Virus record (IMG/VR): IMGVR_UViG_3300032297_000372 | Location: 1 to 64,000 of that record | Source: a virus | Reading direction: 5' to 3' (one strand) | DNA length: 64,000 nucleotides | Shown here: positions 45,901-64,000 of the stretch, piece by piece | How positions within the stretch are numbered: the stretch's first letter is position 1 | Layout: each line of letters starts with the position of its first letter | Notes under the pieces: model-generated | Told to the model about the DNA's origin: nothing | The model's database searches: none | What the model saw: the letters and a program-made list of their open reading frames with translations, nothing else | Made by a program: the position numbers and the translations under genes

Positions 45901-48900
45901 AACGATGAAACTTGGCACCATATTGCTTGTGTTAAATCTGGAAATAATGGTTATTTGTTTGTTGATGGTGTACTAGAAGATAGTGCAACTGGTTGGAGTA
46001 GTATAAATTCCACAATGAGTGAAGGTATAATTGGTAGATCAAATTATGCAAATGCTACTCTTAGTGATAATGCATATACAGGTTATCTCAAAAATATTAG
46101 AATATTAAAAGGTACAGCATTATACACAAGTACATTTACACCTCCATCAACAGTAAGCGCAATCGCAAATACAGTTTTATTAGTAAACGGATCAACAATT
46201 ACTGATAGTAGTAATCTAGCTTTATCATTCACTGCAATTACTGTACTGCCTAGTATATCTACAGAAACAATAGGAGCAACATATGAAACGGGCAATTTAA
46301 CTTACAGTATCGCACCAAGTTTACCAACAGGATTAACACTCAATACTGCTAATGGATTTATCACCGGTAATACAGCACAAACAATAATTGCCAATACTTA
46401 CACAGTTTCAATTGGTGATGAAATTGGACAATCATCAAGCAACACTTTCGTAATGAGTATTGTAACTCCATTAAGCATGAGTACAAGTGATACTGAATTA
46501 TCTGTTGGTATTGGATCTAGTTTTAGTTCTACACCTGCAACAGCAACAGGTGGTGTTGGAACAATAACTTATAGTATAGACGGATTAGGTGGCAATACTT
46601 TACCTTACGGATCTACGATAAATTCATCTAATGGTAGAATTTCGGGATTAGTCGCTGTCGAACCTGGAAGAGCAGCTAATGCATATCCATTATTAAGTAC
46701 GATTAAAGTAGTTGCTAATGATAGTTCTAGCCAGCAAGCTTCAAGTGCTAATATACAATTTACTGTTCGTGGTCCATCAGTACCAACATCAATTACAAGT
46801 AGAGCTGTTCGAAGTGTTATAGCAAATACAACATATGCATCAATCAATATTGGTGTAGTGACTGGTGGTTTAGGAGACCTGAAGGGATACATTGTACCTG
46901 TATCTCTTGGAGAATCAAATGCTGCTCTGCATCCATTAGCGTTCTCAAATGCTGTTCCGGGTATGACATGGACATTTGATCCTGCATCTAACACAGTATT
47001 CGTTTCAGGCACACCAACAAAAGCAATTGGTTTCCAATATGGTGTAACAAATAATTTCTTAGGTATACTCATCGAGCCATCAACAACTAGAAGTTTTTAT
47101 ATTCAAGGATTCGATGGAACTAGAAATAGTGGTAAAGGATTTAATAGTAGTTTCGAGTTCAACGTTCAAGCATCACAATTCTATGCTAATACAACAACAT
47201 CAGTTGTAGTGTTTAATACGAAAACCTCGAATACATTTACACCTATAACCGTATCTGGTGGTTATGGAGTAAATGGAAAAATAACATTCGCATTATCTGG
47301 AAATACATTGCCTGCTGGATTATCATTCAGTAATTCTAATGGTGCAATTACAGGTACAGTTTCAAATGTTTATGTTTCGAATACATTTACAATAACTGCT
47401 AATGACGATTCCTTCCAATCAGCATCGAATACATTTACATTACGAGTTGATGCTAGCCCATTAGGAACCATATTATCCGAATCAACAAAAACTCTTGCGT
47501 TAAATACTGCAACGAATTTCACAGTGGTAACAGCAACAGGTGGTGCTGGAATAATAAGCTTTGCTTTAAGTGGTAATACTTTACCTAGCGGTTTAACATT
47601 TGAAACTTCTAACGGTGCAATTATAGGTACACCAACAGTTCTATTAACTGGAAATACCTATACAATTACAGCGAGTGATTCTGTAAGTAATACATCTGCA
47701 CAAACTTTTGTGTTGATTGTTGAAGAGCCAGTATTTAAATATCAGTTAGCTGATGGTGGTTGGATTGCTGATGCTTCTCCTTTAGCTTCTCCAATTTCTT
47801 TAGCTACAGTAAGTCAAACTGGATCACCAACTACAACCAATTCTCCGACAATCAGTACAGATACACCAGCGACTGCGAATGCTTATAGTTTAAATACAGT
47901 GTTTACTAAGTTATTCTACTCAGGAACTAATACTGGATACTTCTTAAATACCGCACCAAATCCAGCATACACATTAGGAAATAGTGATTTTACTGTTGAA
48001 GCTTGGGTTAAATTAACAAACTCCACTTTTGGTCGAGAACAGTTATTGGTAAGAAAAGGTACATTATGGGATTATAGTATGGAAGGTGGTGATCCTGCTA
48101 CCGCTACCGAATTTACAACATCAAATTCAACAGCAATAGTGAGACTGTCTGAGTATGGTTCTAGGAACGCACAATTCGATCCGTTCTTTAATGTAGATGC
48201 ATATGATAATTATGATATAGCAACTTATAGTGGAAAATGGACGCATTTTGCTTTAGTATTTAAGGCTAACACATCAGGCACTACTATTTCAGGAACTAAT
48301 GATGTGGATGCGGGTACAGTAACAATCTTCCTCAATGGTCGACCATATTATACTGAACTTGTACCTTACGCATATGGTGACAATACCATACAAGTTACGG
48401 ATCCTAGTTTATATAATATTGATTTTGGTGGAAATACAGGATTTAATTTTGCACAAACATTAGGTAAAATTTATAAACTGAAAATAAGTGATAAAGTTGT
48501 TTATCCTGTTAATGAATATTTCACACCTACGCCTGATTATGGTGTAGATTCTAATACATTATTCTTCCTAGATGTTGCAGATTCAAGTAATAATTACTAC
48601 ACAAATGCTAATAATTATACTTCGCAGATTAAACTTGTTGATTTTGTGGCTAATACTATGGTAAATCTCGAAAATAATAATGAAGATTCTTTAGCTAATA
48701 CTATTACTTTAAGTGCAGATATACCTTCTGGAGGAAATATCAGTAGTAATAGTTCTCAGACTACAGCTAATGGAAGTGGGTTTGGTTGGTTTATCCAAAA
48801 CTATTATTATAGTTATCTTAATAAAGCTGTTTATAATGTGTATAGTCAGAATTGGACAGTAGAATCATGGTTTAAGTGGTCAACATCAAATTTTGCCAAT

Positions 48901-50820: not shown

Positions 50821-53800
50821 ATGACAAAACTTTTCAATTTTGACCCATATAACGATGATTTTGATGAAGATAAAAACTTCATGCGTCTATTGTTTAGACC
50901 GGGTTATGCATTACAAGCAAGAGAACTAACACAATTACAAACCATTTTATCGAGTCAGATTGAAAAGTTTGGTAACCATATCTTTCAGAACGGTAGTCCA
51001 ATTACTGGCGGTAAAATCTCTCTTGATGATAGAGCTAACTATGTTATTTTAGAAACTCAATATTCAGGTGCAGATATTTCTTTAGATTTGTTCCTGAACA
51101 CAACTGTTGTCAGTTATAACTCAACTAAAAATGTTCGTGCTAAAGTTATTGCTATTGATAATAATACCAATACAACACCTGTGATGATTGTTAAGTATTT
51201 GAGTGGTGATAGATTTGCTGAGACTGATGAGATAAAAGTTGTAGGTCAAAATTTATTTGCTCAAGTTAGAGCCAATGATGCTGTTGGTCGTTCTTACGTT
51301 GCCAGCATTCAAGAAGGTGTTTATTTCTTCAAAGGACAATTTGTCAAAGTTGTTCCAGAATTTCTAGTATTAGAACCATTCTATCGTGTAGGTAATAACT
51401 CTACTGTTATCAACAAACAACCATCATACAAAATTGGTATTGAATTCGATGAATTGGTTATCGATGAAGTTGATGATGCTTCTTTATTGGATCCTGCACA
51501 AGGATCATTTAACTATCAAGCACCAGGTGCTACTAGATTTAAAGTCGATACTCGTTTGTCTAAGAGAACATTAGATTCTGCTGACGAATCTTCATTCTTT
51601 GAAGTTATTCGTTTAGTTAACGGTGTAAAAACTAAAGAGATTGATTATCCAATTTACAGTGAATTGGAAAAGACATTGGCTCGCAGAACATTTGAAGAAT
51701 CTGGTAACTATACTGTTGATCCTTTTGTTCTTTCAATGCAAGAAGATTGGCAAGATCCAGCAAATAACAATGTTGTTAATGCTGATTATTTTTCTGCTAT
51801 TCTCGATCCAGGTAAAGCATATGTTGGTGGTTATGAATTTCAAACAATTGCACCAACAGTATTAGGTATTCCAAGAGCAAGAGCTACATCTAACGTTTCT
51901 GATTACGATGTGCCTACTTCATATGGTAGTTATGTTTTTGTTAAGAACGTTTCTAAAACATTAGATGTTACTTCTTTCCCACAATTAGATATACATTGCG
52001 TTTCAGCTGAAAAAATCGATACATCATCTACAGCAAAATATGATTCTACTAAAATAGGAACATTACGTGCTAACATGTTGAAATATGATGATGCAACATC
52101 TAGAGCTGATGGGCTAACTCATATTCACAGAATGCATGTGTTTCAAGTTAACACATCTTCAATCATAGGTACTACTGCGGCATCAGCATCTACAAATACT
52201 GTAGTTAAGTTGCCAACTTCATTTACTGCTAATGGTGGTATTAACGCATATGCAAATATGTACTTTAGAATCACTGATGGTGCTGGTCTTGCAGTTGCAC
52301 CTATTCTGATTGAATCTTCTAACAATGCTAATTTGACAATTACATTGCAATCTGCATTACCTTTTATTCCTGCATCAAATGCTTTCTCTATTGATGCTGA
52401 CTTTTATAGAGCAGAAGGTTTTTCGGTTAAGAGTGGTACATCATTAACATTCTCAGCAAACGTTGATAGTTCATCAAAAGATACAGATGGTTTCTCTTTA
52501 ATTACTGAAAAGAGTAGAGAGAATGCTGTATTTGATTTGCCATTTGAAGCTATCAAACAAGGCACTATTGATAATTTCGATTTCTATGCCACAAAATTAT
52601 ATTCAAATAAAGTTTCTAATTTAGGCGGAACAATTTCTTTCGCACCTAACGGTACAGATACTTTTGCTTTTGCTGGTTCAGCTGGTGTTTTAGGTCAAAC
52701 AACAATTTTGAATAACATTATTTGTTTTGTTCGACCAGAAACAAATGCGAACGTTCAATTTGGTATCTACCCAAATACAATTTTAAGTTTAGCAAATTCA
52801 AACTTCACCGTTACTGCTGTTGGTGATGGTTCGTTGACATTTGACATTAGAGTTCCTGCAACTTATGTTGATTTCTTAATTAAGACTAAAGTTAATAATG
52901 CAGAAGCTGGTGCAACTGGTGCTATTCGTTCTAAGACACTGCGACCATCATTAAGTGCTGCTGAAGATTTGCATGTTAAAGTTCCTTACAATTTAAAACC
53001 TGCTGGTACAGATTTAGAAAGATTAACATCATCAAATACAGGAACAGTAACAACATTTACTGGTGGTTATGTTTTTGAAACTGTTGGTGCTACATTCTTT
53101 GACACAACTAGTGCGATGGCAGATTTGAAAACACCAGGTAAAGCAGTAAGTTTACAAGTACCTGATATTTTCGAAATCGTTAGAATTACCGACTCACGTA
53201 CCAACACCACAAATGTTACAACTGCAATGTTGACGAGTGACGACCATGATGTCACATCACACTATGAATTTGATAATGGCCAAAGAAGAACACATTACGA
53301 TCACGCTACTATACGTCTAAAACGTGGTTATAGTTCGCCTATCGGATCAACTTTATTGGTGCAATACAAATACTACGCACATGGGTTATCACCACAAAAT
53401 AGTGGATTGTTTACTGTAGATTCTTATCCAGGTGATTATGCTGATATTCCATTATTTAATGACAAAGAGGGTAATCGATTAATTTCAGCACGAGGATTTT
53501 TAGACTTTAGACCTACGAGAGCTATTGCAGGAACAACAATTGCAAACGGTGTTAATGCTGATCCGGATGAAGTTGCGGAATTATCTTTTGAACATTATCT
53601 ATCACGTATCGATCAAATCGTTGTTAAACCTTCAAAAGAAATTGGTGTAATACAGGGGCAACCAGGTGTTAAGCCTGTACAACCTACCGTATCTGGTGAT
53701 GATATGTTGATATACACACTGTATATCCCACCATATACTGATGATGTAAAAGTAATTCGTGCAGATTTCAAAAATAACCGTAGATTCACCATGAGTGATA

Positions 53801-56800
53801 TCGGTGCGTTTGAAAATCGTATTAAAGGTTTAGAATATTATGTTGCTCTGAACGCACTTGAGAAAAATGCAAATGATTCAAAAGTTCTAGATGCCAATGG
53901 TTTAGAAAGATCGAAATATGGTATTCTAGTAGATAACTTTACTTCAACAGATGTACAAGCATCTTACAGTGATGTTAGTTTTGACAATCGTTGCTTAGTA
54001 GAAAACGGTGAGTTGAAACCAGCCTCATTAATGCGTACATTTAAATTAGATTTTGATGAAGATGCTTCTTCTGGTAATTATGCTGCTGTTGGTGTAGCCG
54101 ATAAGAAAACATTAATGTTGGCATATTCAACAACAGAAATGGTTAAACAACCTTACGCTACTAAAACTGTTCCTGTTGCTGGTGCCATTTATGGTAACTT
54201 TAACGGAAAGATGAAACTTTTCCCAGAATTTACCATGGAAAGTGACATCGATAAAACAGCAAGAGTTACATTGAATTCTGTTCAAGGATTAGAAAATGCA
54301 TTTAATTTCGTTAATGAGGCATTTCAATTTATAAGTGATGCAAATCCTACATGGGTAAATGATGCTAACAATCCTTTCGCAAAAGTTGTAGATTCTAAAT
54401 GGTTCGAAACAGTATCAACTGTTACTAATCAAACCGTAGGCCTTGGTGGTAATGTTTTTGGTAATCAACAAATTACTACAGACCGTGTTTACATTTCAAA
54501 AGGCGCCACACTAAGTCAAGAACAATTTGGTGTTTCAACCAGCGAAACTAAAATTGGCGATTTCGTTACTGATGTTTCTATCAACCCATATTTGAAGCCT
54601 AGAGCTATTACATTTATCTCTAATGCTCTTCGCCCATTCACAAGATTCTATTCATTCTTTGATGGTACAGCTGTAGATAACTTTATCGTTATTCCTAATA
54701 AAGTATATTTGGGTGCGAACACAGAATTCTCTGATGGTGAGGTAGCACTTTTAGCAAATAATACTGGTGAATTAGCTACTCAATTGAATAGTTGGTTGGC
54801 TGGTGGAACAGCTTTCAATTTAGTTCGTGTAGTTAATTCAATACCGGGAACAAATACAGTTTCAATTGTTAATGAAACTGGTTTAGCATTAACTGGTAAA
54901 TATCTAAAAGGATTGACATCACTAAAAGAAGGTTACATATCTACTTTAGTTGAACATAAGTCTGGTATAACACGAACCTTAACATCAAATACTATTACAT
55001 TAGCTTCAGATGCTCCTTCTGTTAATATTGCTGGTAACACAATATACTTCATACACGAAGCCTCAACTGAAGAGGGTAGAGGTTCTTCTTATACAATTAC
55101 AAACTATAATACAACAACTAAAGTTGCTAATATTTCAGGTACACTCAGTACCACAGATGCAGCTTCAAATAGTTGGATATATTCTATAGGTACAAACATA
55201 ACAAATAAACATGGAGATATTGCTGGTGTATTCTACCCACCAGCAGCAACATTCCGTACAGGCGAAAGAAAACTACGATTAACAGAATCATTCAACAACA
55301 CTTATGATTTAGATTCTATTTCATTTACTGAAAAGACTTTTGTATCTTCAGGTGTAACTGTTAACAAAACAACTTTAGTTGATACAGTTTACAATGTGGA
55401 TGTTGGTGTTAAAGTTGTAGGTACAGCTACTTCAGCAATCTTACAATCTACCGCTTCTGAAAGTAGAATTACAAGTACATGGCGAGTTGACCCATTAGCA
55501 CAAACTTTCTTTGTTGATCCTTCAGTATATCCAAATGGATTAACAATGTCTAGTGTTAATGTATTCTTTAGTTCTAAAGATGATGATTTGCCCGTATCAG
55601 TACAAATCCGACCTACAATTAATGGATTACCTTCTTCCGATTTCTGGTATCCTGAATCTGTTGTTGTTAAAAATCCTAATGATGTTACTATTACTTCAGC
55701 TCCTGATGCGGATGATTTAACAACATCAACTGAGTTTACTTTCCCTTCTCCTGTTTTCTTAAAACCAGGTCTGTACGCACTAGTTGTATTGTGTGATAGT
55801 CCTGATTACATAGTATGGACAGCAGAAAAAGGACAAACAACCACAGGCGGTCAGTACGTTTCAATTAATCCTTATGTTGGTACATTGTACAAATCTCAAA
55901 ACTCTATGGAATATGTTCCATATATTAATGAAGATTTGATGTTTGTTTTGAATAGATGTGTGTTTACAACAGATCCAGCAAACTTCGTATTAAGAACTCC
56001 AAACTTTGATAGAAAGTATAACATCGATAAGTTTAGATTGCTTGATCGAGGAATATCATTACTTTCAAATGAAGCTTTCTCTGCAAGTTATTCTTTCATT
56101 TCTAAACCTGTAGATGGTGTTAAAGAAACGGTATATAGAACTATTGAGCCAAGAGTAACTTACTATATGGGTGACGATACAAAATATGCTATTGGGTATA
56201 GAAGAAAAGAAGTTCAGAATTCTGGCGATTTCATGATTAAATATCAAATTTCTACCAATGATCCTGCCGTTTCACCGATGGTATCTTTAGAAGCTATGCA
56301 CTTAAATGCATGGGAAAACTTCATCGACAATGCTGAAATTAATGAAGAAGATTTTAATATCATATCACCAGGTTCTGGTTATGCAAATTCGAATACAGTT
56401 ACAATCTCATCAACTACAGGTTCGGGTGCTTTAGTTTATCTGAATGTTGATCCTAGTGGTAACGTTTTAAGTTTGAATGTTGCTGCAAGCGGTACAGGTT
56501 ATTTGGATGACTTTAGTATTTCAGTTCCAGTAACTGCTTCAAATGCTTCTATTGTATTGAATAGTGAATATGATAGTTCTGGCGGTCCATGTTTAGCAAG
56601 ATACATTACAAAACCAATTACTCTTGCTGATGGTTTTGATGCTGGCGATATAAGAATATTCTTATCAGCAAATAAACCGACTGGTACAGAAGTTACTGTT
56701 TTTGCTAAAATTCTATCTTCATCTGATAGCACTCCATTTAAAGATAGAGGTTATCAGAAATTAGAATGCTTCAATCCAACAAACTTTGCTACAACTAAAG

Positions 56801-56988
56801 AAAATGAATTTATAGAATATGAATTCAGACCTTCTTTGACAGAAGATAATATAACTTACACAGCCGATAACGGAATTATTTACGATAATTTTAAAACATT
56901 CTCAATTAAAATTGTCATGACTTCCCTCGATCCTTCAGTTATTCCGAGAGTCAAAGATTTAAGGATAATTGCTTTACCGGCAGGTTAA
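50821..56988 (+). CDS. Large virion structural protein (VrlC/DUF4815-like)
   Basis: PYNDDFD..KNF.R.LFRPG.A.QARELTQLQ, APGA.R, LARRT..ESG.Y, DPLAQTF, P.VKDLR.IAL. Confidence 0.85.
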   Translation: MTKLFNFDPYNDDFDEDKNFMRLLFRPGYALQARELTQLQTILSSQIEKFGNHIFQNGSPITGGKISLDDRANYVILETQYSGADISLDLFLNTTVVSYNSTKNVRAKVIAIDNNTNTTPVMIVKYLSGDRFAETDEIKVVGQNLFAQVRANDAVGRSYVASIQEGVYFFKGQFVKVVPEFLVLEPFYRVGNNSTVINKQPSYKIGIEFDELVIDEVDDASLLDPAQGSFNYQAPGATRFKVDTRLSKRTLDSADESSFFEVIRLVNGVKTKEIDYPIYSELEKTLARRTFEESGNYTVDPFVLSMQEDWQDPANNNVVNADYFSAILDPGKAYVGGYEFQTIAPTVLGIPRARATSNVSDYDVPTSYGSYVFVKNVSKTLDVTSFPQLDIHCVSAEKIDTSSTAKYDSTKIGTLRANMLKYDDATSRADGLTHIHRMHVFQVNTSSIIGTTAASASTNTVVKLPTSFTANGGINAYANMYFRITDGAGLAVAPILIESSNNANLTITLQSALPFIPASNAFSIDADFYRAEGFSVKSGTSLTFSANVDSSSKDTDGFSLITEKSRENAVFDLPFEAIKQGTIDNFDFYATKLYSNKVSNLGGTISFAPNGTDTFAFAGSAGVLGQTTILNNIICFVRPETNANVQFGIYPNTILSLANSNFTVTAVGDGSLTFDIRVPATYVDFLIKTKVNNAEAGATGAIRSKTLRPSLSAAEDLHVKVPYNLKPAGTDLERLTSSNTGTVTTFTGGYVFETVGATFFDTTSAMADLKTPGKAVSLQVPDIFEIVRITDSRTNTTNVTTAMLTSDDHDVTSHYEFDNGQRRTHYDHATIRLKRGYSSPIGSTLLVQYKYYAHGLSPQNSGLFTVDSYPGDYADIPLFNDKEGNRLISARGFLDFRPTRAIAGTTIANGVNADPDEVAELSFEHYLSRIDQIVVKPSKEIGVIQGQPGVKPVQPTVSGDDMLIYTLYIPPYTDDVKVIRADFKNNRRFTMSDIGAFENRIKGLEYYVALNALEKNANDSKVLDANGLERSKYGILVDNFTSTDVQASYSDVSFDNRCLVENGELKPASLMRTFKLDFDEDASSGNYAAVGVADKKTLMLAYSTTEMVKQPYATKTVPVAGAIYGNFNGKMKLFPEFTMESDIDKTARVTLNSVQGLENAFNFVNEAFQFISDANPTWVNDANNPFAKVVDSKWFETVSTVTNQTVGLGGNVFGNQQITTDRVYISKGATLSQEQFGVSTSETKIGDFVTDVSINPYLKPRAITFISNALRPFTRFYSFFDGTAVDNFIVIPNKVYLGANTEFSDGEVALLANNTGELATQLNSWLAGGTAFNLVRVVNSIPGTNTVSIVNETGLALTGKYLKGLTSLKEGYISTLVEHKSGITRTLTSNTITLASDAPSVNIAGNTIYFIHEASTEEGRGSSYTITNYNTTTKVANISGTLSTTDAASNSWIYSIGTNITNKHGDIAGVFYPPAATFRTGERKLRLTESFNNTYDLDSISFTEKTFVSSGVTVNKTTLVDTVYNVDVGVKVVGTATSAILQSTASESRITSTWRVDPLAQTFFVDPSVYPNGLTMSSVNVFFSSKDDDLPVSVQIRPTINGLPSSDFWYPESVVVKNPNDVTITSAPDADDLTTSTEFTFPSPVFLKPGLYALVVLCDSPDYIVWTAEKGQTTTGGQYVSINPYVGTLYKSQNSMEYVPYINEDLMFVLNRCVFTTDPANFVLRTPNFDRKYNIDKFRLLDRGISLLSNEAFSASYSFISKPVDGVKETVYRTIEPRVTYYMGDDTKYAIGYRRKEVQNSGDFMIKYQISTNDPAVSPMVSLEAMHLNAWENFIDNAEINEEDFNIISPGSGYANSNTVTISSTTGSGALVYLNVDPSGNVLSLNVAASGTGYLDDFSISVPVTASNASIVLNSEYDSSGGPCLARYITKPITLADGFDAGDIRIFLSANKPTGTEVTVFAKILSSSDSTPFKDRGYQKLECFNPTNFATTKENEFIEYEFRPSLTEDNITYTADNGIIYDNFKTFSIKIVMTSLDPSVIPRVKDLRIIALPAG

Positions 56989-57229: not shown

Positions 57230-60200
57230 ATGCCAATTTCACAAATCGAAAATATAACAAGAACTAATACCATTGATGAATGGAGAATACAGACTAATAA
57301 ATCTGCCTCTGATTTAAATGATCTTGGTTTTTCATCATATGATAAAACGCAAGGTACTTTGATTATATCAAATACTGCGTCATTACGAATTACTGCATCA
57401 GGAACTCCTTTTGAGGTTGTTAATAGTGTTCTCTTTCAGAATAATCTATCGTTAGCAAATAACTTTTATCTAGGTACTGTAGGCACTCCAACAGGTAATG
57501 CTATTATTGGTGGTACAGTAAGTATTGGTGGTTCAGGTGCAACTTCATTAAATGTCGCTAATGGTGTAACTGTTGGTACAGATTTAGCGGTAACTAGAAA
57601 TATTTCTGCATCAAACGCTGCTTTTAGTAATCACATAACAGTAGCAAACAACATAACAGCCTCAGGCATTCTTCGTTTACCTGGAACGGTTGCAGAAAAA
57701 GGAAATGTAATATATGCAAATTCTGGTTCAGCTTATATTAATACAGTTTTTGCATCAACAATTAATTCAGCAAACGTAGCTTCAGATAACGTAAGAGCAT
57801 TGCAAGCAACCTTTGACGTTCTGAACCTTATTGGTTTAGGCACAATGTTAAATTTGCAGGTTTTCAATGATGCGTTCTTAGTTGATATTATTGCTACAGG
57901 TAACAGTTATTTTGATGTTGCTAATGTTCGTTCATTAACAGTTAACTCTTCAGCAAACATAGTAACATTATCTTCGAATACTTCTACGATTAATAACGCA
58001 ATCTTAGGAAATGCCACTGTAACACGAGCTAACGTCACAAACATGACGGTAGACCAAACAGGTAATGTTGTAACTTTAATTTCGAATCTATCATTAATCA
58101 ATACTGCAAATATTTTAATAACAAATGCAAACGTTGGTAATATTCGTAACTTTAGTTTAGGTACTGGTAGTATTACAACAGCTGCAATAGAAAATCAAAC
58201 TTTCAATGTTGCCGTTGGTAACACAAGCACAATACAATCAGCAAACATTGTTACATTACAATCTAATCAAGCGACAATCAATACTGGTAATGTAACAAGA
58301 ATCTTTGCTTCTAATGCAAATGTAAGTACAGTAAACGTTTCCTCATTAGTAGATGTTACTACTGGTGGTTTAGTTAGAGTTGCTGCTGGTGCTTCTCCAG
58401 AAACAACTGTATTGCAAGTTGCAGGTAAAACTAACTTAGCTAACGTAGTTATTGACGGCAATTTAACTGTATCGGGTGCGTTCACACAAACCGGAACTGT
58501 AAACTTCCAGATTCAGTCTTTCTTATTGAATGCAAATACGGCTACAAATCTTGATGCTTCGATTATTAATAAGAGAGCTCTAGGTGATAATGCTATTATT
58601 AATTGGGACGAATCTGTAGATCAGTGGAAGATTTCTACAGGTAATACATACTCACAATTAAACAGAATACTCGATGCTGGTCAATTATCATCACAAGTAA
58701 CTAATACAAGTATTACTGATGTCGCAACTCCTGCTGCGGTTAACACAGTACATACGATTTCTATTACTGCAAGTCATTATGCCAATGCAGCATTCTTACA
58801 AGCAAATACTCCTAGTCACGTATCGAATAGTGCGTCTAGTTATGCTAACTCTGCATTCTTGCAAGCGAATACTCCGAGTCATGTATCTAACTCTGCGGCA
58901 CTCTATGCTAACGCAGCCTTTATAGTTGCAAACACACCAACTCATGTGGCAAATTCTGCTGCTTTATATGCTAATGCGGCATTTATCGTTGCGAATACAC
59001 CAAGTCATGTTGCCAATAGTGCAGGTTTCTATGCTAACGGTGCATTTGTAAAGGCTAATACCGCAGATATCAATGCTAATGCAGCTTCATCATACGCTAA
59101 TGCGGCATTCACTCAAGCTAACTCTGCATTCGTATCAGCAACTAACGCTCAACTTGCCGCAGATGCCGCACAAGGAACAGGTTCAGCATCTTACGTTTTA
59201 GCAAATACAACTACCAATACCGCTTTAGCAGGATTTGCAGTTGCCAACTCCGCAGCACTTTATGCTAATTCAGCTTTCTTGAGAGCTAATAATTCATTGT
59301 TAAGTTCTGGCGGAACAATGACTGGTGATTTAACCATGTCAGGTAGTAACTCGATCAATGCATCAAGAGCTAACATTGCTTTTGATTTATTAGGTGTTAG
59401 AACAGGTGCATCTGGTGCTAGAATTGTGATGAACTATGACATCATTCAATCTGCTGATCCATTGTTCAGAGCATCACTTGTTGTGGATAGAGGTGTAAGT
59501 CCTAACGTTGAGATTCGTTGGAATGAACCTACAGCAAAATGGCAGTTCACGAATGATGGTTCTACTTACACCGACTTTGGTGGTAGTACCGCACCTGCCG
59601 TTGCCGGAGGTACAAATAGACAGATTCTAGTACAGACTGGTGTAGGTGCAACAGGTTTCATTGATGCTCCTTCAACTGCTAATAGATACTTACAATGGAC
59701 AGGATCAGCATTTACTTGGGCTGAGGTACCTAGTGCAGACTTAACTGAACTGAGTGCAAGTAATCTAACATCTGGTACTATACCTGCGGCTAGAATGCCG
59801 GCAACTGGTTCTTTTGGATTTAATATTACAGGTAGCGCAGGTTCAGCATTGACTGCTGCAACAGCAACAACTGCTACAACAGCAGTCAATGCCACAAATG
59901 CAGTAAACATTTCTGGTGGTAATGTACAAAATGCTTTAGCCTTTACAGTGTTAGGTACTCCAAGTATCGGTGACGGAACATCAACATTCTATAATAGACT
60001 TTATATTAGAGATGGCGGCACAACAACAAGTAAAACTGATCCTTCAGATACAGCAGCATTAAAAGTTTTAGGTGATATAGCTGTCTCTACTGATGTTTGG
60101 GCAACTTTGTTTAATGGTACCGCAACATCAGCTCGATATGCTGACTTAGCAGAAAAATATTTACCTGATGCGGATTATCCTGAAGGTACTGTAATGGCCA

Positions 60201-60490
60201 TAGGTGGTGAAAAAGAAGTTACTGCCGCTTCTGATGTTGACTTCAGAGCTATAGGTGTGATATCATTGAAACCTGCATTTAGAATGAATGAAAATCTAGA
60301 GAACGGTGTTTATGTTGCACTGAAAGGTCGAGTGCCTGTACGAGTAAAAGGTGAAATCAAAAAAGGTCAACCTATTGGCACAAGTGATACTTTAGGTGTA
60401 GGTAAACTTAATGCACGTAATCATTTTGCTATTGCATTAGAAACAAAAACAACTGAAGAAGAAGGTGTAATAGAAGCATTAATTCTTTAA
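57230..60490 (+). CDS. Tail fibre / structural protein with C-terminal chaperone-like ('YADLAE') domain
   Basis: TNT.DEWR..TN N-terminus, AN-rich beta and coiled-coil repeats, ATSARYADLAEKY...GV.S..P...MN...VALKGRVP.RV. Confidence 0.8.
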   Translation: MPISQIENITRTNTIDEWRIQTNKSASDLNDLGFSSYDKTQGTLIISNTASLRITASGTPFEVVNSVLFQNNLSLANNFYLGTVGTPTGNAIIGGTVSIGGSGATSLNVANGVTVGTDLAVTRNISASNAAFSNHITVANNITASGILRLPGTVAEKGNVIYANSGSAYINTVFASTINSANVASDNVRALQATFDVLNLIGLGTMLNLQVFNDAFLVDIIATGNSYFDVANVRSLTVNSSANIVTLSSNTSTINNAILGNATVTRANVTNMTVDQTGNVVTLISNLSLINTANILITNANVGNIRNFSLGTGSITTAAIENQTFNVAVGNTSTIQSANIVTLQSNQATINTGNVTRIFASNANVSTVNVSSLVDVTTGGLVRVAAGASPETTVLQVAGKTNLANVVIDGNLTVSGAFTQTGTVNFQIQSFLLNANTATNLDASIINKRALGDNAIINWDESVDQWKISTGNTYSQLNRILDAGQLSSQVTNTSITDVATPAAVNTVHTISITASHYANAAFLQANTPSHVSNSASSYANSAFLQANTPSHVSNSAALYANAAFIVANTPTHVANSAALYANAAFIVANTPSHVANSAGFYANGAFVKANTADINANAASSYANAAFTQANSAFVSATNAQLAADAAQGTGSASYVLANTTTNTALAGFAVANSAALYANSAFLRANNSLLSSGGTMTGDLTMSGSNSINASRANIAFDLLGVRTGASGARIVMNYDIIQSADPLFRASLVVDRGVSPNVEIRWNEPTAKWQFTNDGSTYTDFGGSTAPAVAGGTNRQILVQTGVGATGFIDAPSTANRYLQWTGSAFTWAEVPSADLTELSASNLTSGTIPAARMPATGSFGFNITGSAGSALTAATATTATTAVNATNAVNISGGNVQNALAFTVLGTPSIGDGTSTFYNRLYIRDGGTTTSKTDPSDTAALKVLGDIAVSTDVWATLFNGTATSARYADLAEKYLPDADYPEGTVMAIGGEKEVTAASDVDFRAIGVISLKPAFRMNENLENGVYVALKGRVPVRVKGEIKKGQPIGTSDTLGVGKLNARNHFAIALETKTTEEEGVIEALIL
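58778..59130 (+). repeat. 63-nt (21-aa) tandem repeat, about 5.5 copies
   Basis: YANAAF..ANTPSHV.NSA.. units start at 58778, 58841, 58904, 58967, 59030, 59093. Confidence 0.85.
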
Positions 60491-60491: not shown

Positions 60492-60965
60492 ATGATAACT
60501 ATTGATGAGTTTGAGAATTTTATACAACATGATTTGGTATATGAACAAAAGTTAATTTCTATACTGGATGACCTAGGTCGACAAATTTATATTGATGATC
60601 TAGGTCAACTTCATTCCAACTACGGTAAAACCGTAAAAGTTGAGGGTATGGAAAAATATAATGCACAAATATATGACACATGTTGTGAATTGCAATACGT
60701 ATATAATCATAATGGTGTCGTGACTTGTCATGCTTTCAGAGCTTATGAAAATTCTGCAAGTTTTGGAACTCATACTGATCCTGATGATGTTTATATACAC
60801 GTTATTTGGGGAGAAAAAACTCTTCAAATAAAAGATGAAATTCACATATATCGTTCTGGTGAAAGTGTATTCATACCTTCTAATACCCCACACAAAGCTA
60901 TAAACGAAAAAGAATCTTTAATATTAAGCTTTGGTCTTGAAAAATTTCTAGTAGATAAATTATGA
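60492..60965 (+). CDS. JmjC/cupin (Cupin_4/ROXA-like) Fe(II)-2OG oxygenase
   Basis: SFGTHTDPDDVYIHVIWGEK (HxD) and GESVFIPSNTPHKA (distal His). Confidence 0.75.
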   Translation: MITIDEFENFIQHDLVYEQKLISILDDLGRQIYIDDLGQLHSNYGKTVKVEGMEKYNAQIYDTCCELQYVYNHNGVVTCHAFRAYENSASFGTHTDPDDVYIHVIWGEKTLQIKDEIHIYRSGESVFIPSNTPHKAINEKESLILSFGLEKFLVDKL

Positions 60966-62020
60966 ATTGGATGTTTTATTTAAAGACCACTGAAACATGT
61001 AATTTAAATTGTAAACATTGTTTCACTAATGGCATTAATGGTCCTAAAATTTTCTGGAATGCCATAAAGATTACTGATTGGATTAAACGTTTCAGAGCAT
61101 ATTACCCATCTAATTCTGATTCTATACATTGTGAATTTCACGGTGGTGAGCCGTTTTTAGTTCCTGTTCATGAAATGCGTCATGTGTGGGAAAATTGTAA
61201 AGACTTGTGGCCTGCCATGACTTGGGGAGCAACAACGAATTTAGTATTTAAGATGGATCAAGAACATTATGATTTTATAGAAGAAGCTTTCGATAATAGA
61301 ATAGGAACTTCTTGGGATCCTAAAATTAGATTTGCCAATAATAAACAATATAAACTTTGGCATAGTAATGTTAAAAGCCTATTGAATCGTGGCGTAACTG
61401 TAAAACTTTTTATAAGTGTAACACAAGATACATTAAATATAGAACCCATAGTATTGTTACGTTGGATTCGTAGGTTAGGTGTACAAGAAGTTTCGTTTGA
61501 GAGATTAACTCAGAATGGTAACGCTAAAAAATATCCTGAAATATTTCCTAACAATATTGAACAAGATAACTGGTTTCTAAAATTATACGAACAATCTGAG
61601 AAATATGGTGCCAGAGAATGGTTCGATAATGAATTTTTAGAAGTAATTTATTCAAAATTTGATACCGGATTCTTGAAAGGTGGAACTTTCTGTAGAGATT
61701 GTGAAGAAAAGATATTCACTGTAAATGCTGACGGTACATTATCAGGATGCCCAAATTCTGCTCCAGAATTTCAATTTGGACATATAAATGATAATCTGGA
61801 AGATGTTATAAATAGTGAAAGAAGAATAGAAAATATATCATGTGAACGTAGTAGAGATCCTAGATGTTTTTCATGTGATGTGTTTGAATATTGTGGTGGA
61901 GACTGTCATCAATTAGAATGGCAAAATGATGTTTGTGGAGCTCCAAAAAGTTTAATGAGATATTTAAAAAATAAACAAAAAAATAAAGTTTGGATATTAA
62001 AAAATGGCAACCTTAACTAA
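60962..62020 (+). CDS. Radical SAM protein with C-terminal SPASM domain
   Basis: CNLNCKHC, FHGGEP, C..C...GTLSGCP, CFSC....YCGGDC....C (CxxCx5Cx3C). Confidence 0.93.
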   Translation: MNWMFYLKTTETCNLNCKHCFTNGINGPKIFWNAIKITDWIKRFRAYYPSNSDSIHCEFHGGEPFLVPVHEMRHVWENCKDLWPAMTWGATTNLVFKMDQEHYDFIEEAFDNRIGTSWDPKIRFANNKQYKLWHSNVKSLLNRGVTVKLFISVTQDTLNIEPIVLLRWIRRLGVQEVSFERLTQNGNAKKYPEIFPNNIEQDNWFLKLYEQSEKYGAREWFDNEFLEVIYSKFDTGFLKGGTFCRDCEEKIFTVNADGTLSGCPNSAPEFQFGHINDNLEDVINSERRIENISCERSRDPRCFSCDVFEYCGGDCHQLEWQNDVCGAPKSLMRYLKNKQKNKVWILKNGNLN

Positions 62021-62549
62021 TAATATTAACCCTCAAAATATCGTTGATAGATTTGCTGATTATGTGACAGCCACAGCTAGTGCAGGAATTACATGGGGAA
62101 CTAATGCTAAACCCTTTAGTCAATTTGATGCGGGTTATCTTGGAGGAACAACCGCAGGTAGACCTATTGGTATATCAGGTGGAAATATTTCTGCTGTTGG
62201 TGGAACAATCACAGCTTCAGCAATTTACAACACTCTAGTTAATGAAACCGCACAATATACTTCTATTAGAAGTTTAAGAGCTATTCTACATTTAACCGGA
62301 TCAGGCAACCAGTTCGATCAAACAGCTATTGCTTATATGAGTTATGGATCGTATGGGCAGAGTATTGGTTCACCAGCAAATGCTGGCGTCTCAGCAGGAT
62401 CGACAATAACTAGTAGTGGTTTAGAATCGCTTTTTAATAATTTAAGATCATCGTATAATACTGCAAGAGCAGCCACAACTACGATAACTGTTACTGTTTG
62501 TCACACATCGTGTCATTCATCCTGCCACGGTTCTAGAGGAAGAAGATAA
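62004..62549 (+). CDS. Ser/Thr/Gly/Ala-rich virion-like protein with C-terminal (CHxS)3-RGRR motif; putative radical SAM substrate
   Basis: All three Cys lie in the terminal CHTSCHSSCHGSRGRR; overlaps the rSAM gene end. Confidence 0.75.
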   Translation: MATLTNNINPQNIVDRFADYVTATASAGITWGTNAKPFSQFDAGYLGGTTAGRPIGISGGNISAVGGTITASAIYNTLVNETAQYTSIRSLRAILHLTGSGNQFDQTAIAYMSYGSYGQSIGSPANAGVSAGSTITSSGLESLFNNLRSSYNTARAATTTITVTVCHTSCHSSCHGSRGRR

Positions 62550-63265
62550 TGAATATTGTTGAAACTACTGCACCCATCTCGATTGAAAATTTAAAAAAAT
62601 ATTTTAATGACCAGACTACTTTTTTTGTTATTGATTATAAAGACAGTAGTTTAAAAGGAACAAAACTATTAACATATCTTTCGAATTTAGATATACCTTC
62701 TGACATAAACTTTACAGGTTGTTCTAGTGATGAATGTTTTGATATGATTAAAGAATACCTACATTCTACAATGATTGTTAATATTCCTGCACTTGAGTCG
62801 GCAGTTATCAATATATTACATCAAACTAAAAATTTAGTTCCAGTAACAGATAAAAAATTTATTGACGATAATAAAGAAATTTTAGATAAGTGGATTTCAA
62901 AACTAGAAAGTTTATCCCTATTCAATATGCATATTATTGGAAACGGAATGTTCAAAGAATTTGTTTCTGAGTTTGAAGTCGATGCATCAACTGAATTGAT
63001 CGGTGTTAATTTTATTAGTTTATTAAAGAATGAACATTTTTATTCTTTCTATAATAATACCGATAAAAAATCATTAAAGTTTTATACACATTATTTTAAT
63101 GATTACATGTTCAAAGGTAAAAATATGTATTCATATTGGGCTAATGAGAATAATCCTTTATTTTTATTGACATACGGTATTTCAGAAGGCCTTGTAGAAG
63201 GAAATTCTTATAACTCATACAAACAAAAAACAATCGAGGAATTAGAAAATGTTACACCTGTTTAA
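62549..63265 (+). CDS. Hypothetical protein in the rSAM operon
   Basis: TAATG coupling; YKDS.LKG..LL.YLSNLD.P.D. Confidence 0.75.
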   Translation: MNIVETTAPISIENLKKYFNDQTTFFVIDYKDSSLKGTKLLTYLSNLDIPSDINFTGCSSDECFDMIKEYLHSTMIVNIPALESAVINILHQTKNLVPVTDKKFIDDNKEILDKWISKLESLSLFNMHIIGNGMFKEFVSEFEVDASTELIGVNFISLLKNEHFYSFYNNTDKKSLKFYTHYFNDYMFKGKNMYSYWANENNPLFLLTYGISEGLVEGNSYNSYKQKTIEELENVTPV

Positions 63266-64000
63266 TAAAGTTTACTTAGAGTTCGATGATAGAATAGAAA
63301 ATCATCTAGATCGAGTTGTTATTTCAGAACAATACGGAGATCAAATGTATGATCTTTTGGAAAAAGCTGTTCTTGGAAAATTAATACTATATGGTAAAAG
63401 TTTCGAAGAAGTTGTTGGTGACGACTTTTTAGGATTCATAAAATCAATAAAAGAATATGGTGATAACTCTGGTAAAAAAATCATTATTTTCTGTGATAGA
63501 ACTTCATACAAAAAATTTATGGCTCATTGGTTTAGATCAACATTACCTAATTTAGATTATGACGGATTTAAAACTATTGTAGATCATACGATTTATAATC
63601 AACGAATAATTTCGAATACCCAACTATCTTCAATGTTCAGTGTTAATCTAAATTCACTATGGGAAGATTTGGATGATATCGAATCTGCGTGGGCAAACGC
63701 ACAATCTGTAAATAGAACCTCGTTGAAATCTTTGAATTTAAATCATACATATGAATTTTTATTATCAACTTATTTGTCTGGTGATAATTCACATAAAGAA
63801 GCCTTGAAAAAAACATTGCACATGTTTTTACGCCGTTGGTTTATAGAAATGTTTGTTGACAATCGACAAATGGTTTTATTGAATCTTAATAACCATAAAT
63901 TCTTAAGCACATTTAATATTGATCCTAAATTGATAGATTTAACTCGTTTAGATCCTTTAGATGTAATAGAACAATTTGAATCTTACTCCGATGATGAAAT
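63249..64000 (+). CDS. Hypothetical protein in the rSAM operon (3'-truncated; not in ORF track)
   Basis: GAGG RBS; MLHLFNKVYLEFDD... frame appears open to the window end; overlaps the upstream gene. Confidence 0.75.
   Translation, partial: MLHLFNKVYLEFDDRIENHLDRVVISEQYGDQMYDLLEKAVLGKLILYGKSFEEVVGDDFLGFIKSIKEYGDNSGKKIIIFCDRTSYKKFMAHWFRSTLPNLDYDGFKTIVDHTIYNQRIISNTQLSSMFSVNLNSLWEDLDDIESAWANAQSVNRTSLKSLNLNHTYEFLLSTYLSGDNSHKEALKKTLHMFLRRWFIEMFVDNRQMVLLNLNNHKFLSTFNIDPKLIDLTRLDPLDVIEQFESYSDDE

What the first reader, a model, noticed from the sequence alone, without database searches (positions are those of the whole stretch)
62499..62549. C-terminal CHTS-CHSS-CHGS-RGRR core on a fibre-like body
Seen: three perfect four-residue C-H-x-S units hold every Cys of the protein and end in a basic RGRR tail. 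The N-terminal ~165 aa is S/T/G/A-rich with two similar segments (GGTITASAIYNTL and GSTITSSGLESLFNNL) resembling short phage fibre motifs. The spacing differs from contiguous HxSHxS Hxs precursors. It offers both H-x-S triads (cyclophane-type) and Cys (thioether-type) as possible targets. Alternative: an unmodified Cys/His metal-binding trimer tip.
Basis: partly seen in the sequence, partly recalled or inferred. Interest (0 to 1): 0.8.

Follow-up and report, generated by a model that had tools for sequence, protein, structure and literature searches.

The report
Cys-His tail matured by radical-SAM enzymes
A small late protein of an uncultured marine T4-like phage ends in a nearly invariant (Cys-His-x-Ser)x3-Arg-Gly-Arg-Arg tail that always lies beside radical-SAM enzymes, in phages and in bacteria, so the tail is probably modified chemically, a kind of virus-protein maturation that I found in no paper I could search.

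Summary
The motif is real: residues 166-181 of a 181-aa ORF (62004-62549, +). It holds all three Cys of the protein. It is the most conserved part of a large family: 135 of the 150 best clusters at 50% identity or less keep C-H-x-x-C-H-x-x-C-H-x-S-R-x-R-R.

The body is not fibre-like. AlphaFold2 gives a compact alpha/beta domain of no known fold with a floppy tail.

In 77 of 78 related phage loci a SPASM radical-SAM gene abuts the gene upstream. The same pairing occurs in jumbo phages (Atu_ph07, RSL2) and in all 22 bacterial or MAG loci found. Some of those carry the tail on unrelated small proteins with a signal-peptide-like N-terminus.

Published proteomics found the Atu_ph07 homologue (gp170) in a phage-particle preparation, but not its neighbouring enzymes.

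Best reading (0.62): the tail of a late, probably virion, protein is a substrate of radical-SAM enzymes and oxygenases. The chemistry is undetermined; I lean to Cys thioethers. An unmodified metal- or disulfide-forming tail remains possible.

The scan found this cassette before on other DNA (at least ten genomes). A check of the same claim elsewhere was marked 'part of it fell', without details. It is a new variant of radical-SAM protein maturation.

The parts
62004..62549 (+). Gene of the 181-aa Cys-His-tailed protein: a compact alpha/beta body of unknown fold plus a flexible 16-residue tail
   Evidence: ORF. 656 homologues at E<=0.01. AF2 model with pLDDT 85. No PDB fold match. phrog_35144, function unknown.
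62499..62546 (+). Tail (C-H-x-S)x3-R-G-R-R, the putative modification site
   Evidence: Family logo [VI]-C-H-[SA]-S-C-H-S-[SN]-C-H-[GSN]-S-R-[GS]-R-R over 135 clusters at <=50% identity. Only copy in the genome record. Synonymous codon variety at conserved positions.
60962..62020 (+). rSAM1: radical-SAM/SPASM enzyme of 352 aa. It overlaps the start of the tail-protein gene by 17 nt and has no N-terminal recognition domain.
   Evidence: Pfam Radical_SAM; NCBIfam SPASM domain 36.1 bits (cut-off 27); best equivalog matches PapB, DynA and anSME, all far below cut-off. Invariant C13/C17/C20 plus eight SPASM Cys. Directly upstream in 77 of 78 loci.
60492..60965 (+). Cupin/JmjC-type oxygenase of 157 aa, first gene of the cassette
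   Evidence: Pfam Cupin_2 39.1 bits (cut-off 27.2) and JmjC_2 27.9 bits (cut-off 22). Same position in Atu_ph07 (gp172) and RSL2 (ORF066).
61807..61814 (+). TATAAATA, a T4-type late-promoter octamer inside rSAM1, 197 nt before the start of the tail-protein gene
   Evidence: One of only 4 copies in the window, against 11.9 expected. An octamer lies within 225 nt upstream of the gene in 71 of 77 related loci, against about 0.05 expected per locus.
62549..63265 (+). p238: conserved unknown protein whose start overlaps the stop of the tail-protein gene by 1 nt
   Evidence: phrog_20767. Present in nearly all loci. Confident AF2 model (pLDDT 88) without a recognisable fold. Its Atu_ph07 homologue gp169 is absent from the virion list.
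63249..64000 (+). p364: conserved unknown protein. It runs off the window and ends at 64343 of the record. The cassette then continues with rSAM2, a 2OG oxygenase, rSAM3, a 2OG oxygenase, rSAM4, p138 and a 2OG oxygenase, to about 69.7 kb.
57230..60490 (+). Fibre-like protein of 1086 aa, directly upstream of the cassette
   Evidence: C-terminal matches to phrog_19602 (tail fiber protein) and phrog_22593. Conserved upstream neighbour in most loci.

Best explanation
The 181-aa protein is a late, probably virion-associated, phage protein. Its flexible C-terminal tail, (Cys-His-x-Ser)x3-Arg-Gly-Arg-Arg, is the substrate of the enzyme cassette around it.

Shown:
- the tail and its near-invariance;
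- its strict genetic linkage to SPASM radical-SAM genes in phages and in bacteria;
- the globular body and the disordered tail (in a predicted model);
- detection of a syntenic homologue in a phage-particle preparation.

Inferred mechanism: rSAM1 has the radical-SAM cluster and all eight SPASM cysteines but no recognition domain. It docks on the invariant S-R-x-R-R carboxyl end and works along the four-residue units. In each unit it abstracts a hydrogen atom and closes a small ring.

My leaning is Cys-S-to-carbon thioethers of the ranthipeptide/sactipeptide kind (about 0.3). His-to-C-beta cyclophanes on H-x-S are next (about 0.2). An anSME-like oxidation of the last Cys, in C-H-G-S-R, or other chemistry takes the rest.

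The JmjC-type cupin may hydroxylate a His or Arg of the tail. The further radical-SAM enzymes and 2OG oxygenases may add steps. The finished protein then joins the particle near the fibres. There the modified tail would serve as a cross-linking, metal-binding or receptor-contact element.
For: 1. Conservation. C, H and R of the tail are invariant in 135 of the 150 best representative clusters, down to about 30% body identity. Ser at the fourth position of each unit is kept in 109-128 of the 135. Codons vary synonymously, including between the two Ser codon families.
2. Linkage in phages. rSAM1 abuts the gene in 77 of the 78 IMG/VR loci that hold upstream DNA. The core order is rSAM1, tail protein, p238, p364, rSAM2.
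3. Same trio in distant jumbo phages. In Atu_ph07 and RSL2 the order is cupin, rSAM1 orthologue (47-48% identity), then a protein ending CHSSCHASCHNSRSRR or CHSSCHTSCHGSRGRR.
4. Independent association in cells. All 22 bacterial or MAG loci with the tail have radical-SAM/SPASM genes beside it. In Pseudomonas oleovorans, Pseudomonas sp. HS-2, Cysteiniphilum, Loktanella and two MAGs the tail ends unrelated proteins of 119-146 aa. These start with a signal-peptide-like segment and are flanked by 3-5 radical-SAM genes. What these loci share is the tail and the enzymes, not the body.
5. The number of units varies from 2 to 4 while the last unit and the S-R-G-x-R end stay fixed. This is what an iteratively processed core looks like.
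6. The tail is the only such motif in the 91.6-kb record. In 81% of family members it holds all the Cys.
7. The tail is low-confidence and exposed in the model.
8. Atu_ph07 gp170 (calculated 31.894 kDa; table value 31,89) was detected in the particle preparation with 8 unique peptides and 35% coverage. gp169, gp171 (rSAM) and gp172 (cupin) are not listed (PMC6102473 Table S5).
9. A conserved T4-type late-promoter octamer lies upstream of the gene.
10. Precedents for radical-SAM enzymes that mature whole proteins: HxsA (PMC13128918) and CrpA (PMC13692751).
Against: No modification has been observed; everything rests on linkage and conservation.

Cys and His are classic metal ligands, so their invariance is also what a metal site would show.

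rSAM1 matches no curated maturase family above its cut-off, so the chemistry cannot be read from homology.

The cassette holds four radical-SAM enzymes and four oxygenases. These could act on other substrates, such as the fibres.

The Atu_ph07 gel buffer as described contained no reductant. gp170, whose only Cys are in the tail, was found in slices 1-9 with its peak in the top slice. A disulfide ladder would explain this and would imply free thiols. That argues against all three Cys being consumed in internal thioethers.

That preparation was PEG-purified and also contained replication proteins, so presence in the virion is likely but not proven.

An earlier check of the same claim on other DNA was marked 'part of it fell', without details.
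Confidence: 0.62

Rival explanations
1. The tail is not modified. Its Cys/His pairs bind a metal (Zn, Fe or Cu) or form intermolecular disulfides that tie copies of the protein, or the protein and a fibre, together. The neighbouring radical-SAM enzymes and oxygenases act on something else, such as the fibre proteins or a small molecule.
For: Cys and His are invariant and spaced i, i+4, i+8. The model gives a short helix at 168-175, which would put the three Cys on one face. In the Atu_ph07 gel, run without a listed reductant, gp170 spread over slices 1-9 and peaked in the top slice. Its only Cys are in the tail. No docking evidence links the tail to rSAM1.
Against: This reading does not explain why the tail co-occurs with radical-SAM/SPASM genes on unrelated bodies in bacteria. 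It does not explain the conservation of Ser at the fourth position or of the S-R-x-R-R end. It does not explain the natural His-to-Tyr and His-to-Phe variants. All characterised SPASM enzymes named among the matches act on peptides or proteins encoded nearby (established knowledge of the SPASM subfamily), and no other candidate substrate motif is in the record.
Confidence: 0.18
2. The protein is a precursor or scaffold rather than a structural part. The tail is modified and then cut off as a small peptide or cofactor-like molecule, as with PQQ, mycofactocin or classical RiPPs. The product acts in the infected cell or outside it.
For: The core is C-terminal with repeated units, beside several tailoring enzymes. 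The bacterial relatives look like exported small precursors with signal-peptide-like starts. One neighbouring Atlas cluster carries the Pfam family for CXXX-repeat radical-SAM targets in 19% of its members (a lead only).
Against: The 165-residue body is a well-conserved folded domain, not a leader. No protease or transporter was identified in the cassette, though p238, p364 and p138 remain unidentified. The gene follows the fibre genes, behind a conserved late-promoter octamer. Forms exist that are fused behind a Gly_rich_2 domain. gp170 was detected with 35% coverage in the particle preparation.
Confidence: 0.08
3. The chemistry is a three-residue cyclophane on each His-x-Ser triad (triceptide-like). 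The Cys serve only to bind the enzyme's auxiliary cluster or a metal.
For: H-x-[S/N/A] fits the aromatic-X-X pattern. The His position is occasionally Tyr or Phe: C-Y in two bacterial tails and in P0244, C-F in P0213. Several cyclophane-forming maturase models (YhhB, FxsB, AmcB, XyeB) appear among the weak matches. In HxsA a radical-SAM-dependent +8 Da change maps to S-H-R-S-S.
Against: All these models score far below their cut-offs, and PapB (thioether) scores best. Cys is as invariant as His, which known triceptide cores do not need. The Tyr and Phe variants are single clusters and could be errors.
Confidence: 0.2

Closest known systems
HXS antiphage system (HxsA matured by radical-SAM enzymes HxsB/HxsC with HxsD; Li et al., Nat Commun 2026, PMC13128918)
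   Same: A folded protein of about 200 aa, not a short peptide, carries His-x-Ser repeats rich in basic residues. It is matured by more than one radical-SAM enzyme encoded beside it.
   Different: The Hxs repeats are contiguous tripeptides without Cys; here the period is four residues, each unit starts with Cys, and the repeats lie at the extreme C-terminus. The HxsB model scores 27.6 bits against a cut-off of 370. Hxs is a bacterial defence effector, whereas this is a phage late protein.
Ranthipeptide and sactipeptide maturation (PapB with freyrasin CX3D repeats; CteB with SCIFF, PDB 5WGG)
   Same: A SPASM radical-SAM enzyme sits next to a core with regularly spaced Cys. PapB is the best-scoring curated model and CteB is among the best PDB matches.
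   Different: The scores are far below cut-off (51 bits against 340). The tail has no Asp or Glu acceptor. The substrate is a 181-aa folded protein with no leader, and the enzyme has no recognition domain.
Anaerobic sulfatase-maturating enzyme (anSME, TIGR03942, PDB 4K36-4K39)
   Same: It acts on a full-length protein and has no recognition domain. Its radical-SAM motif starts near residue 13-15, it is about 350-370 aa long, and both auxiliary clusters can be fully Cys-ligated. The last unit of the tail, C-H-G-S-R, resembles C-x-P/A-x-R.
   Different: The score is 40.5 bits against a cut-off of 349. Pro or Ala at the third position is rare here. The two upstream units lack the Arg. Nothing here suggests a sulfatase.
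Protein thioether systems QhpD/QhpC (quinohemoprotein amine dehydrogenase gamma subunit) and CrpC/CrpA (PMC13692751)
   Same: SPASM enzymes install several cross-links in a Cys-rich protein that stays part of a larger assembly (established knowledge for QhpD). One bacterial relative of the cassette, in Cysteiniphilum, also carries a flavoprotein that matches QhpG, LodB and Trp halogenase weakly.
   Different: There is no sequence membership (QhpD model at E 9e-5, 21 bits against 453). The motif and the biological setting both differ.
CXXX-repeat radical-SAM target family (maturase TIGR04115; target Pfam PF27846)
   Same: Cys at every fourth residue in a C-terminal repeat next to a SPASM maturase. 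An Atlas neighbour cluster carries PF27846 in 19% of its members.
   Different: The maturase model scores 23.7 bits against a cut-off of 350. The target model could not be tested with the Pfam copy at hand.

Membership tests
Hxs (His-Xaa-Ser) system | Contiguous His-Xaa-Ser tripeptide repeats in the target protein | tested here: not met
   The period is four residues, (C-H-x-S)x3. No H-x-S-H-x-S occurs anywhere in the record.
Hxs (His-Xaa-Ser) system | Paired maturases HxsB and HxsC above the curated scores | tested here: not met
   HxsB model: 27.6 bits against a cut-off of 370. No HxsC match for rSAM1.
PapB-type ranthipeptide maturation | Maturase reaches the PapB equivalog cut-off (340 bits) | tested here: not met
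   51.4 bits for the window's enzyme. All 22 family members match, but only weakly, with best E 3e-16.
PapB-type ranthipeptide maturation | Repeated Cys-X3-Asp/Glu acceptor motif in the core | tested here: not met
   No Asp or Glu in the consensus tail; D occurs at x positions in a few clusters only.
SPASM subfamily of radical-SAM enzymes | CxxxCxxC cluster plus a C-terminal SPASM domain with the Cys for two auxiliary clusters | tested here: met
   C13/C17/C20 are invariant, as are C244, C247, C263, C302, C305, C311, C315 and C325. TIGR04085: 36.1 bits against a cut-off of 27.
Anaerobic sulfatase-maturating enzyme | Maturase reaches the TIGR03942 cut-off (349 bits) | tested here: not met
   40.5 bits.
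Anaerobic sulfatase-maturating enzyme | Target motif Cys/Ser-x-Pro/Ala-x-Arg | tested here: inconclusive
   The last unit is C-H-[G62/S41/N15]-S-R. The Cys, the Ser at the fourth position and the Arg at the fifth fit. Pro and Ala are not among the common residues at the third position.
Triceptides (three-residue cyclophane RiPPs) | Aromatic-X-X motif in the core | tested here: met
   Three H-x-[S/N/A] triads, with rare Tyr or Phe in place of His. This is a sequence pattern only.
Triceptides (three-residue cyclophane RiPPs) | Maturase belongs to XyeB, FxsB, GrrM, YhhB or AmcB | tested here: not met
   18-36 bits against cut-offs of 370-450.
CXXX-repeat radical-SAM target system | Target matches the CXXX-repeat target model (PF27846) | not testable with these tools
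   The Pfam scan at E<=10 gave nothing, and the model seems absent from this copy. The only lead is an Atlas neighbour cluster at score 0.81.
CXXX-repeat radical-SAM target system | Maturase reaches the TIGR04115 cut-off (350 bits) | tested here: not met
   23.7 bits. Only 7 of 22 family members match at E<=1e-5.
Classical RiPP precursor | Short precursor with a leader, released core, and a protease or exporter in the cluster | tested here: inconclusive
   The body is a conserved folded domain of 165 aa. No protease or transporter family was found in the cassette, but three of its genes are unknown.
Phage tail fibre / fibre-like protein | Elongated repetitive fibre architecture, or a match to a fibre family | tested here: not met
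   The AF2 model is compact alpha/beta. The only PHROG hit is a family of unknown function. Best PDB match is Z 3.9.
Virion structural protein | Detected in purified particles | tested here: inconclusive
   The syntenic homologue Atu_ph07 gp170 was detected with 8 peptides and 35% coverage. The preparation was PEG-purified and also held replication proteins. There are no data for this phage.

The most novel reading that the evidence does not exclude
Large phages, and also predatory and other bacteria, use a dedicated kit of radical-SAM enzymes and oxygenases to turn a genetically encoded Cys-His repeat tail into a non-proteinogenic 'warhead' on an extracellular appendage. For example, the product could be a thioether- or heterocycle-based metal chelator, or a covalent cross-linker at the fibre or baseplate, and adsorption or particle stability would depend on it. 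That would be the first radical-SAM-made post-translational modification of a virus particle, and a new class of protein modification shared by viruses and cells.
Probability: 0.2. Interest if true: 0.9.

Novelty: new variant of a known kind. Interest (0 to 1): 0.7.

Why it matters
Radical-SAM/SPASM enzymes are known as makers of peptide natural products and of a few protein cofactors. The many radical-SAM genes of marine T4-like and jumbo phages are usually listed as 'auxiliary metabolic' or even 'antibiotic' genes.

This locus suggests that at least some of them finish a phage late protein that probably enters the particle. If so, phage particles carry enzyme-made, non-ribosomal chemistry that structure prediction and standard proteomics miss. 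Host recognition or particle stability in abundant ocean phages may depend on it.

The family is large: 345 clusters at 50% identity. It is present in cultured phages of laboratory-tractable hosts, and it offers a compact 16-residue substrate. The question is therefore directly testable.

Tried and rejected
1. Complex prediction of rSAM1 with the tail protein, plus three 4Fe-4S clusters and SAM, gave no verdict (ipSAE 0.09 and 0.00). It counts neither for nor against binding.
2. blastn and tblastn of the locus and of the tail protein against 50,697 phage records found nothing. The jumbo-phage homologues were reached only through rSAM1 and profile comparison.
3. Pfam and NCBIfam give no family for the tail protein, even at E<=10.
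4. Fold searches of the tail-protein model found no known fold: Foldseek against PDB gave nothing at E<=0.001, and VIA-align gave a best Z of 3.9.
5. p238 gave a confident model but no recognisable fold (best Z 5.0, over 55 residues), and the Atlas gave no useful lead. Its suggested role as a recognition factor remains a guess.
6. phmmer of rSAM1 against PDB sequences found nothing. A family profile found only weak matches to 8VPO, CteB and anSME.
IMG/VR and GTDB loci were used for synteny instead.
8. Literature searches found no description of the motif or of a radical-SAM-modified virion protein. The terms covered radical SAM with cyanophage, tail fibre, SPASM, CXXX repeat, virion and cross-link.
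9. The sigma-70 promoter and terminator scan was uninformative.
10. A heme c site (the tail contains C-X3-C-H) was considered and set aside as unlikely. The phage protein has no signal peptide, and I saw no heme-attachment genes. This was not tested further.
Full report
**The observation.** The window carries a 181-aa ORF at 62004-62549 (+). It ends in C-H-T-S-C-H-S-S-C-H-G-S-R-G-R-R, encoded at 62499-62546 with the stop codon at 62547-62549.
- These residues hold all three Cys and three of the four His of the protein.
- S, T, G and A make up 50% of the first 165 residues.
- From six-frame residue frequencies, about 1e-7 copies of (C-H-x-S)x3 are expected in the 91.6-kb record. This is the only copy, and also the only C-H-x-x-C-H and the only R-x-R-R-stop in an ORF of 60 residues or more.

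**The body is not a fibre.** An AlphaFold2 model built on 37 homologues has mean pLDDT 85 and pTM 0.78.
- It shows a compact alpha/beta domain: helices 10-25, 71-87 and 137-156, and strands 29-32, 88-98, 103-112 and 158-166.
Each helix is followed by a strand, so they form an internal helix-strand repeat.
- Only residues 167-181 are of low confidence (pLDDT about 50), which fits an exposed, flexible tail.
- No solved structure resembles the body. Foldseek against PDB gave nothing at E<=0.001, and VIA-align against 48,161 chains gave a best Z of 3.9.
- In the library of predicted viral structures the only clear relatives are uncharacterised phage proteins, among them one of Agrobacterium phage Atu_ph07.
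- Pfam and NCBIfam have no family for the protein. PHROGs has only an unknown one.

**Conservation.** The word-indexed search found 656 homologues at E<=0.01. The exhaustive search found 345 clusters at 50% identity with E<=0.001.
- Among the 150 best clusters, 135 end in C-H-x-x-C-H-x-x-C-H-x-[SAN]-R-x-R-R, down to about 30% identity in the body.
- In these, C, H and the three R are invariant. The residue before the first Cys is V or I.
- The fourth position of each unit is Ser in 128, 109 and 123 of the 135; otherwise it is mostly Asn.
- In 65 distinct tail DNA sequences the conserved residues use varied synonymous codons. Ser switches between the AGY and TCN codon families. This shows selection on the protein, not DNA repetition.
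- Rare variants lose the middle Cys, add a unit, or put Tyr, Phe, Asn or Pro in place of one His.
- In 81% of members the tail holds every Cys of the protein.

**Genomic context.** The record is an uncultured T4-like myophage with 34.8% G+C.
- Its gp6-like baseplate protein is about 42% identical to those of Methylophilales phage Melnitz and the pelagimyophages.
- The tail-protein gene follows a 1086-aa fibre-like gene.
- Next upstream are a JmjC/cupin oxygenase (Cupin_2 39.1 bits; JmjC_2 27.9 bits against a cut-off of 22) and a 352-aa radical-SAM/SPASM enzyme, rSAM1. The end of rSAM1 overlaps the start of the tail-protein gene by 17 nt.
- Downstream come p238 (a 1-nt overlap), p364, rSAM2, a 2OG oxygenase, rSAM3, a 2OG oxygenase, rSAM4, p138 and a 2OG oxygenase, reaching about 69.7 kb of the record.
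- In 80 IMG/VR loci the order rSAM1, tail protein, p238, p364, rSAM2 is nearly universal, usually with the fibre gene and the cupin in front.
- rSAM1 ends within about 40 nt of the tail-protein start in 77 of the 78 loci that hold upstream DNA. In the 78th it lies 2.2 kb upstream.

**The enzyme.** rSAM1 keeps C13/C17/C20 and eight SPASM cysteines: C244, C247, C263, C302, C305, C311, C315 and C325.
- Its radical-SAM motif starts at residue 13, so it has no N-terminal recognition domain. In this it resembles anSME.
- The best curated matches are PapB (51 bits), DynA, TIGR04083, anSME (40.5 bits) and YhhB. All lie far below their cut-offs.
- The best solved relatives by profile are 8VPO, CteB and anSME.
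- It is therefore a SPASM peptide- or protein-modifying enzyme of no described family. Its chemistry cannot be inferred by homology.

**The same module elsewhere in phages.** rSAM1 has orthologues of 41-49% identity in jumbo phages of Sinorhizobium, Agrobacterium, Ralstonia, Burkholderia and Pseudomonas.
- In Atu_ph07 and RSL2 the order is again cupin, rSAM1, then a protein ending CHSSCHASCHNSRSRR (gp170, 296 aa) or CHSSCHTSCHGSRGRR (ORF068, 186 aa).
- Profile comparison supports homology of the last 47-73 residues (98-99% probability).
- A few metagenomic proteins (P0152, P0271) carry the whole domain and tail fused behind a Pfam Gly_rich_2 domain.

**Particle proteomics.** For Atu_ph07, Table S5 of Attai et al. 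2018 (PMC6102473) lists gp170 among the proteins of the particle preparation.
- It reports 31,89 kDa, 8 unique peptides and 35% coverage, in gel slices 1-9 with the most in slice 1.
- I calculated 31.894 kDa for the tail-bearing protein. I also matched gp176 and gp177 to the table, so the gene numbering agrees.
- gp169 (the p238 homologue), gp171 (rSAM1) and gp172 (cupin) are absent from the list.
- Other proteins of 30-34 kDa in that table mostly peak in slices 7-8.
- Caveat 1: the preparation was PEG-purified and also contained SSB, terminase and ribonucleotide reductase.
- Caveat 2: the loading buffer as described held no reductant. gp170's only Cys are the three of the tail. The upward ladder may therefore be disulfide-linked oligomers, not enzyme-made cross-links.

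**Bacteria.** A scan of one genome per prokaryote species found 22 loci with the tail. All 22 have radical-SAM/SPASM genes next to it.
- Two are probably mis-binned phage contigs, because they carry fibre genes.
- Eleven are from Bdellovibrionota. In one 247-kb Bacteriovoracaceae contig the cassette lies beside nusB, nrdR and a yceI-like gene, so it is chromosomal.
- Pseudomonas oleovorans DSM 1045, Pseudomonas sp. HS-2, Cysteiniphilum litorale, Loktanella sp. and two gammaproteobacterial MAGs carry the tail on unrelated proteins of 119-146 aa.
- There the tail has 3-4 units and ends C-H-G-S-R-G-W-R, and the first His is sometimes Tyr. These proteins start with a signal-peptide-like hydrophobic segment and are flanked by three to five radical-SAM/SPASM genes.
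- In Pseudomonas a gene with a prepilin N-terminal motif lies nearby. In Cysteiniphilum a Trp-halogenase/QhpG-like flavoprotein does.
- What all these loci share is the tail and the enzymes, not the body. This is the strongest argument that the tail is the enzymes' substrate.

**Expression signal.** The T4-type late-promoter octamer TATAAATA occurs only four times in the window, against 11.9 expected.
- One copy lies 32 nt before a baseplate gene. Another lies at 61807, inside rSAM1 and 197 nt before the tail-protein start.
- In 71 of 77 related loci an octamer lies within 225 nt upstream of that start, against about 0.05 expected per locus.
- At the commonest position it overlaps conserved codons of rSAM1, so part of this conservation is at the protein level.
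- It suggests the tail protein has its own late promoter and is made in larger amounts than the upstream enzyme, as expected for a structural protein.

**Interpretation.** I read the tail as the substrate of a multi-enzyme maturation cassette acting on a late, probably particle-associated, protein (0.62).
- Shown: the linkage, the conservation and the detection of a homologue in a particle preparation. The globular body and exposed tail are predictions of the model.
- Inferred: any covalent change.
- On chemistry I lean to Cys thioethers. Regularly spaced Cys are the hallmark of ranthipeptide and sactipeptide cores, and PapB and CteB are the nearest models.
- Two things keep a His cyclophane plausible: the conserved H-x-S/N triads with rare His-to-Tyr/Phe variants, and the +8 Da change at S-H-R-S-S in HxsA.
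- The last unit, C-H-G-S-R, also partly resembles the anSME target.
- The possible disulfide ladder of gp170 argues, if anything, against all three Cys being locked in internal thioethers.
- The main rival is an unmodified metal-binding or disulfide-forming tail (0.18). It fits the Cys/His invariance and the gel behaviour but not the bacterial co-occurrence.
- A released RiPP or cofactor (0.08) fits poorly with the folded conserved body and the particle data.

**Comparison and novelty.** The nearest described systems are HxsA/B/C/D, PapB and CteB, anSME, QhpD/QhpC, CrpC/CrpA and the CXXX-repeat target family. Each shares the logic: a SPASM enzyme next to a repetitive Cys or His core, in some cases on a whole protein. 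Every membership test that could be run failed on curated scores or on the motif.
- I found no paper describing this tail or any radical-SAM-modified virion protein.
- Papers mention these phage genes only as cupin, Fe-S oxidoreductase or radical-SAM 'accessory' genes.
- This scan has noted the same cassette on at least ten other genomes, with the same reading.
- Those notes also report tails of 13-14 units, which I did not test.
- One note says that a check of the same claim on other DNA ended 'part of it fell', without details.
- I classify the finding as a new variant of a known kind: radical-SAM maturation of a protein, here of a phage late or virion protein.

Noticed in passing
window 61807-61814; also 8949, 21582, 28081: The T4-type late-promoter octamer TATAAATA is depleted in the window (4 copies against 11.9 expected). 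One copy lies inside rSAM1, 197 nt before the tail-protein gene. An octamer lies within 225 nt upstream of that gene in 71 of 77 related loci.
   Followed up: partly
L108 4665-5057 (Pseudomonas oleovorans DSM 1045), L109, L107 4692-5051 (Cysteiniphilum litorale), L106, L105, L102: Bacterial proteins of 119-146 aa start with a signal-peptide-like segment, have bodies unrelated to the phage protein, and end in (C-[H/Y]-x-x)x3-4 with C-H-G-S-R-G-W-R. They are flanked by three to five radical-SAM/SPASM genes. Pseudomonas also has a prepilin-motif gene nearby, and Cysteiniphilum a Trp-halogenase/QhpG-like flavoprotein. No NCBIfam or Pfam family names them.
   Followed up: partly
L093 (Bacteriovoracaceae MAG contig of 247 kb) 209-10018: The cassette (rSAM1-like gene, tail protein, p364-like, radical-SAM gene, p238-like, radical-SAM gene) lies directly beside nusB, nrdR and a yceI-like gene. 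It is therefore chromosomal in a predatory bacterium. Eleven of the 22 genome hits are from Bdellovibrionota.
   Followed up: partly
P0152 (453 aa), P0271 (461 aa): Fused forms: an N-terminal Pfam Gly_rich_2 domain followed by the whole tail-protein domain and the Cys-His tail.
   Followed up: partly
L101 4366-5183 (contig binned as Rhodobacteraceae): Two tandem small proteins (137 and 134 aa) each end in the Cys-His tail. They come right after a fibre-like ORF of about 1390 aa, and a cupin gene lies 4 kb downstream.
   Followed up: no
window 36988-49428 and 50821-56988: Two giant ORFs (4146 aa and 2055 aa) lie between the baseplate-wedge genes and the 1086-aa fibre gene. They were not analysed.
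   Followed up: no
record 64345-69709 (beyond the window end): Three further radical-SAM paralogues (rSAM2-4), three 2OG-Fe(II) oxygenases and the unknown proteins p364 and p138 complete the cassette. Only rSAM2 and p364 are as widely conserved as rSAM1.
   Followed up: partly
PMC6102473 Table S5 (Atu_ph07): Besides gp170, two other small proteins peak in the top gel slice: gp321 (36 kDa) and gp616 (32 kDa), each with few peptides. The gel buffer as described contained no reducing agent.
   Followed up: no
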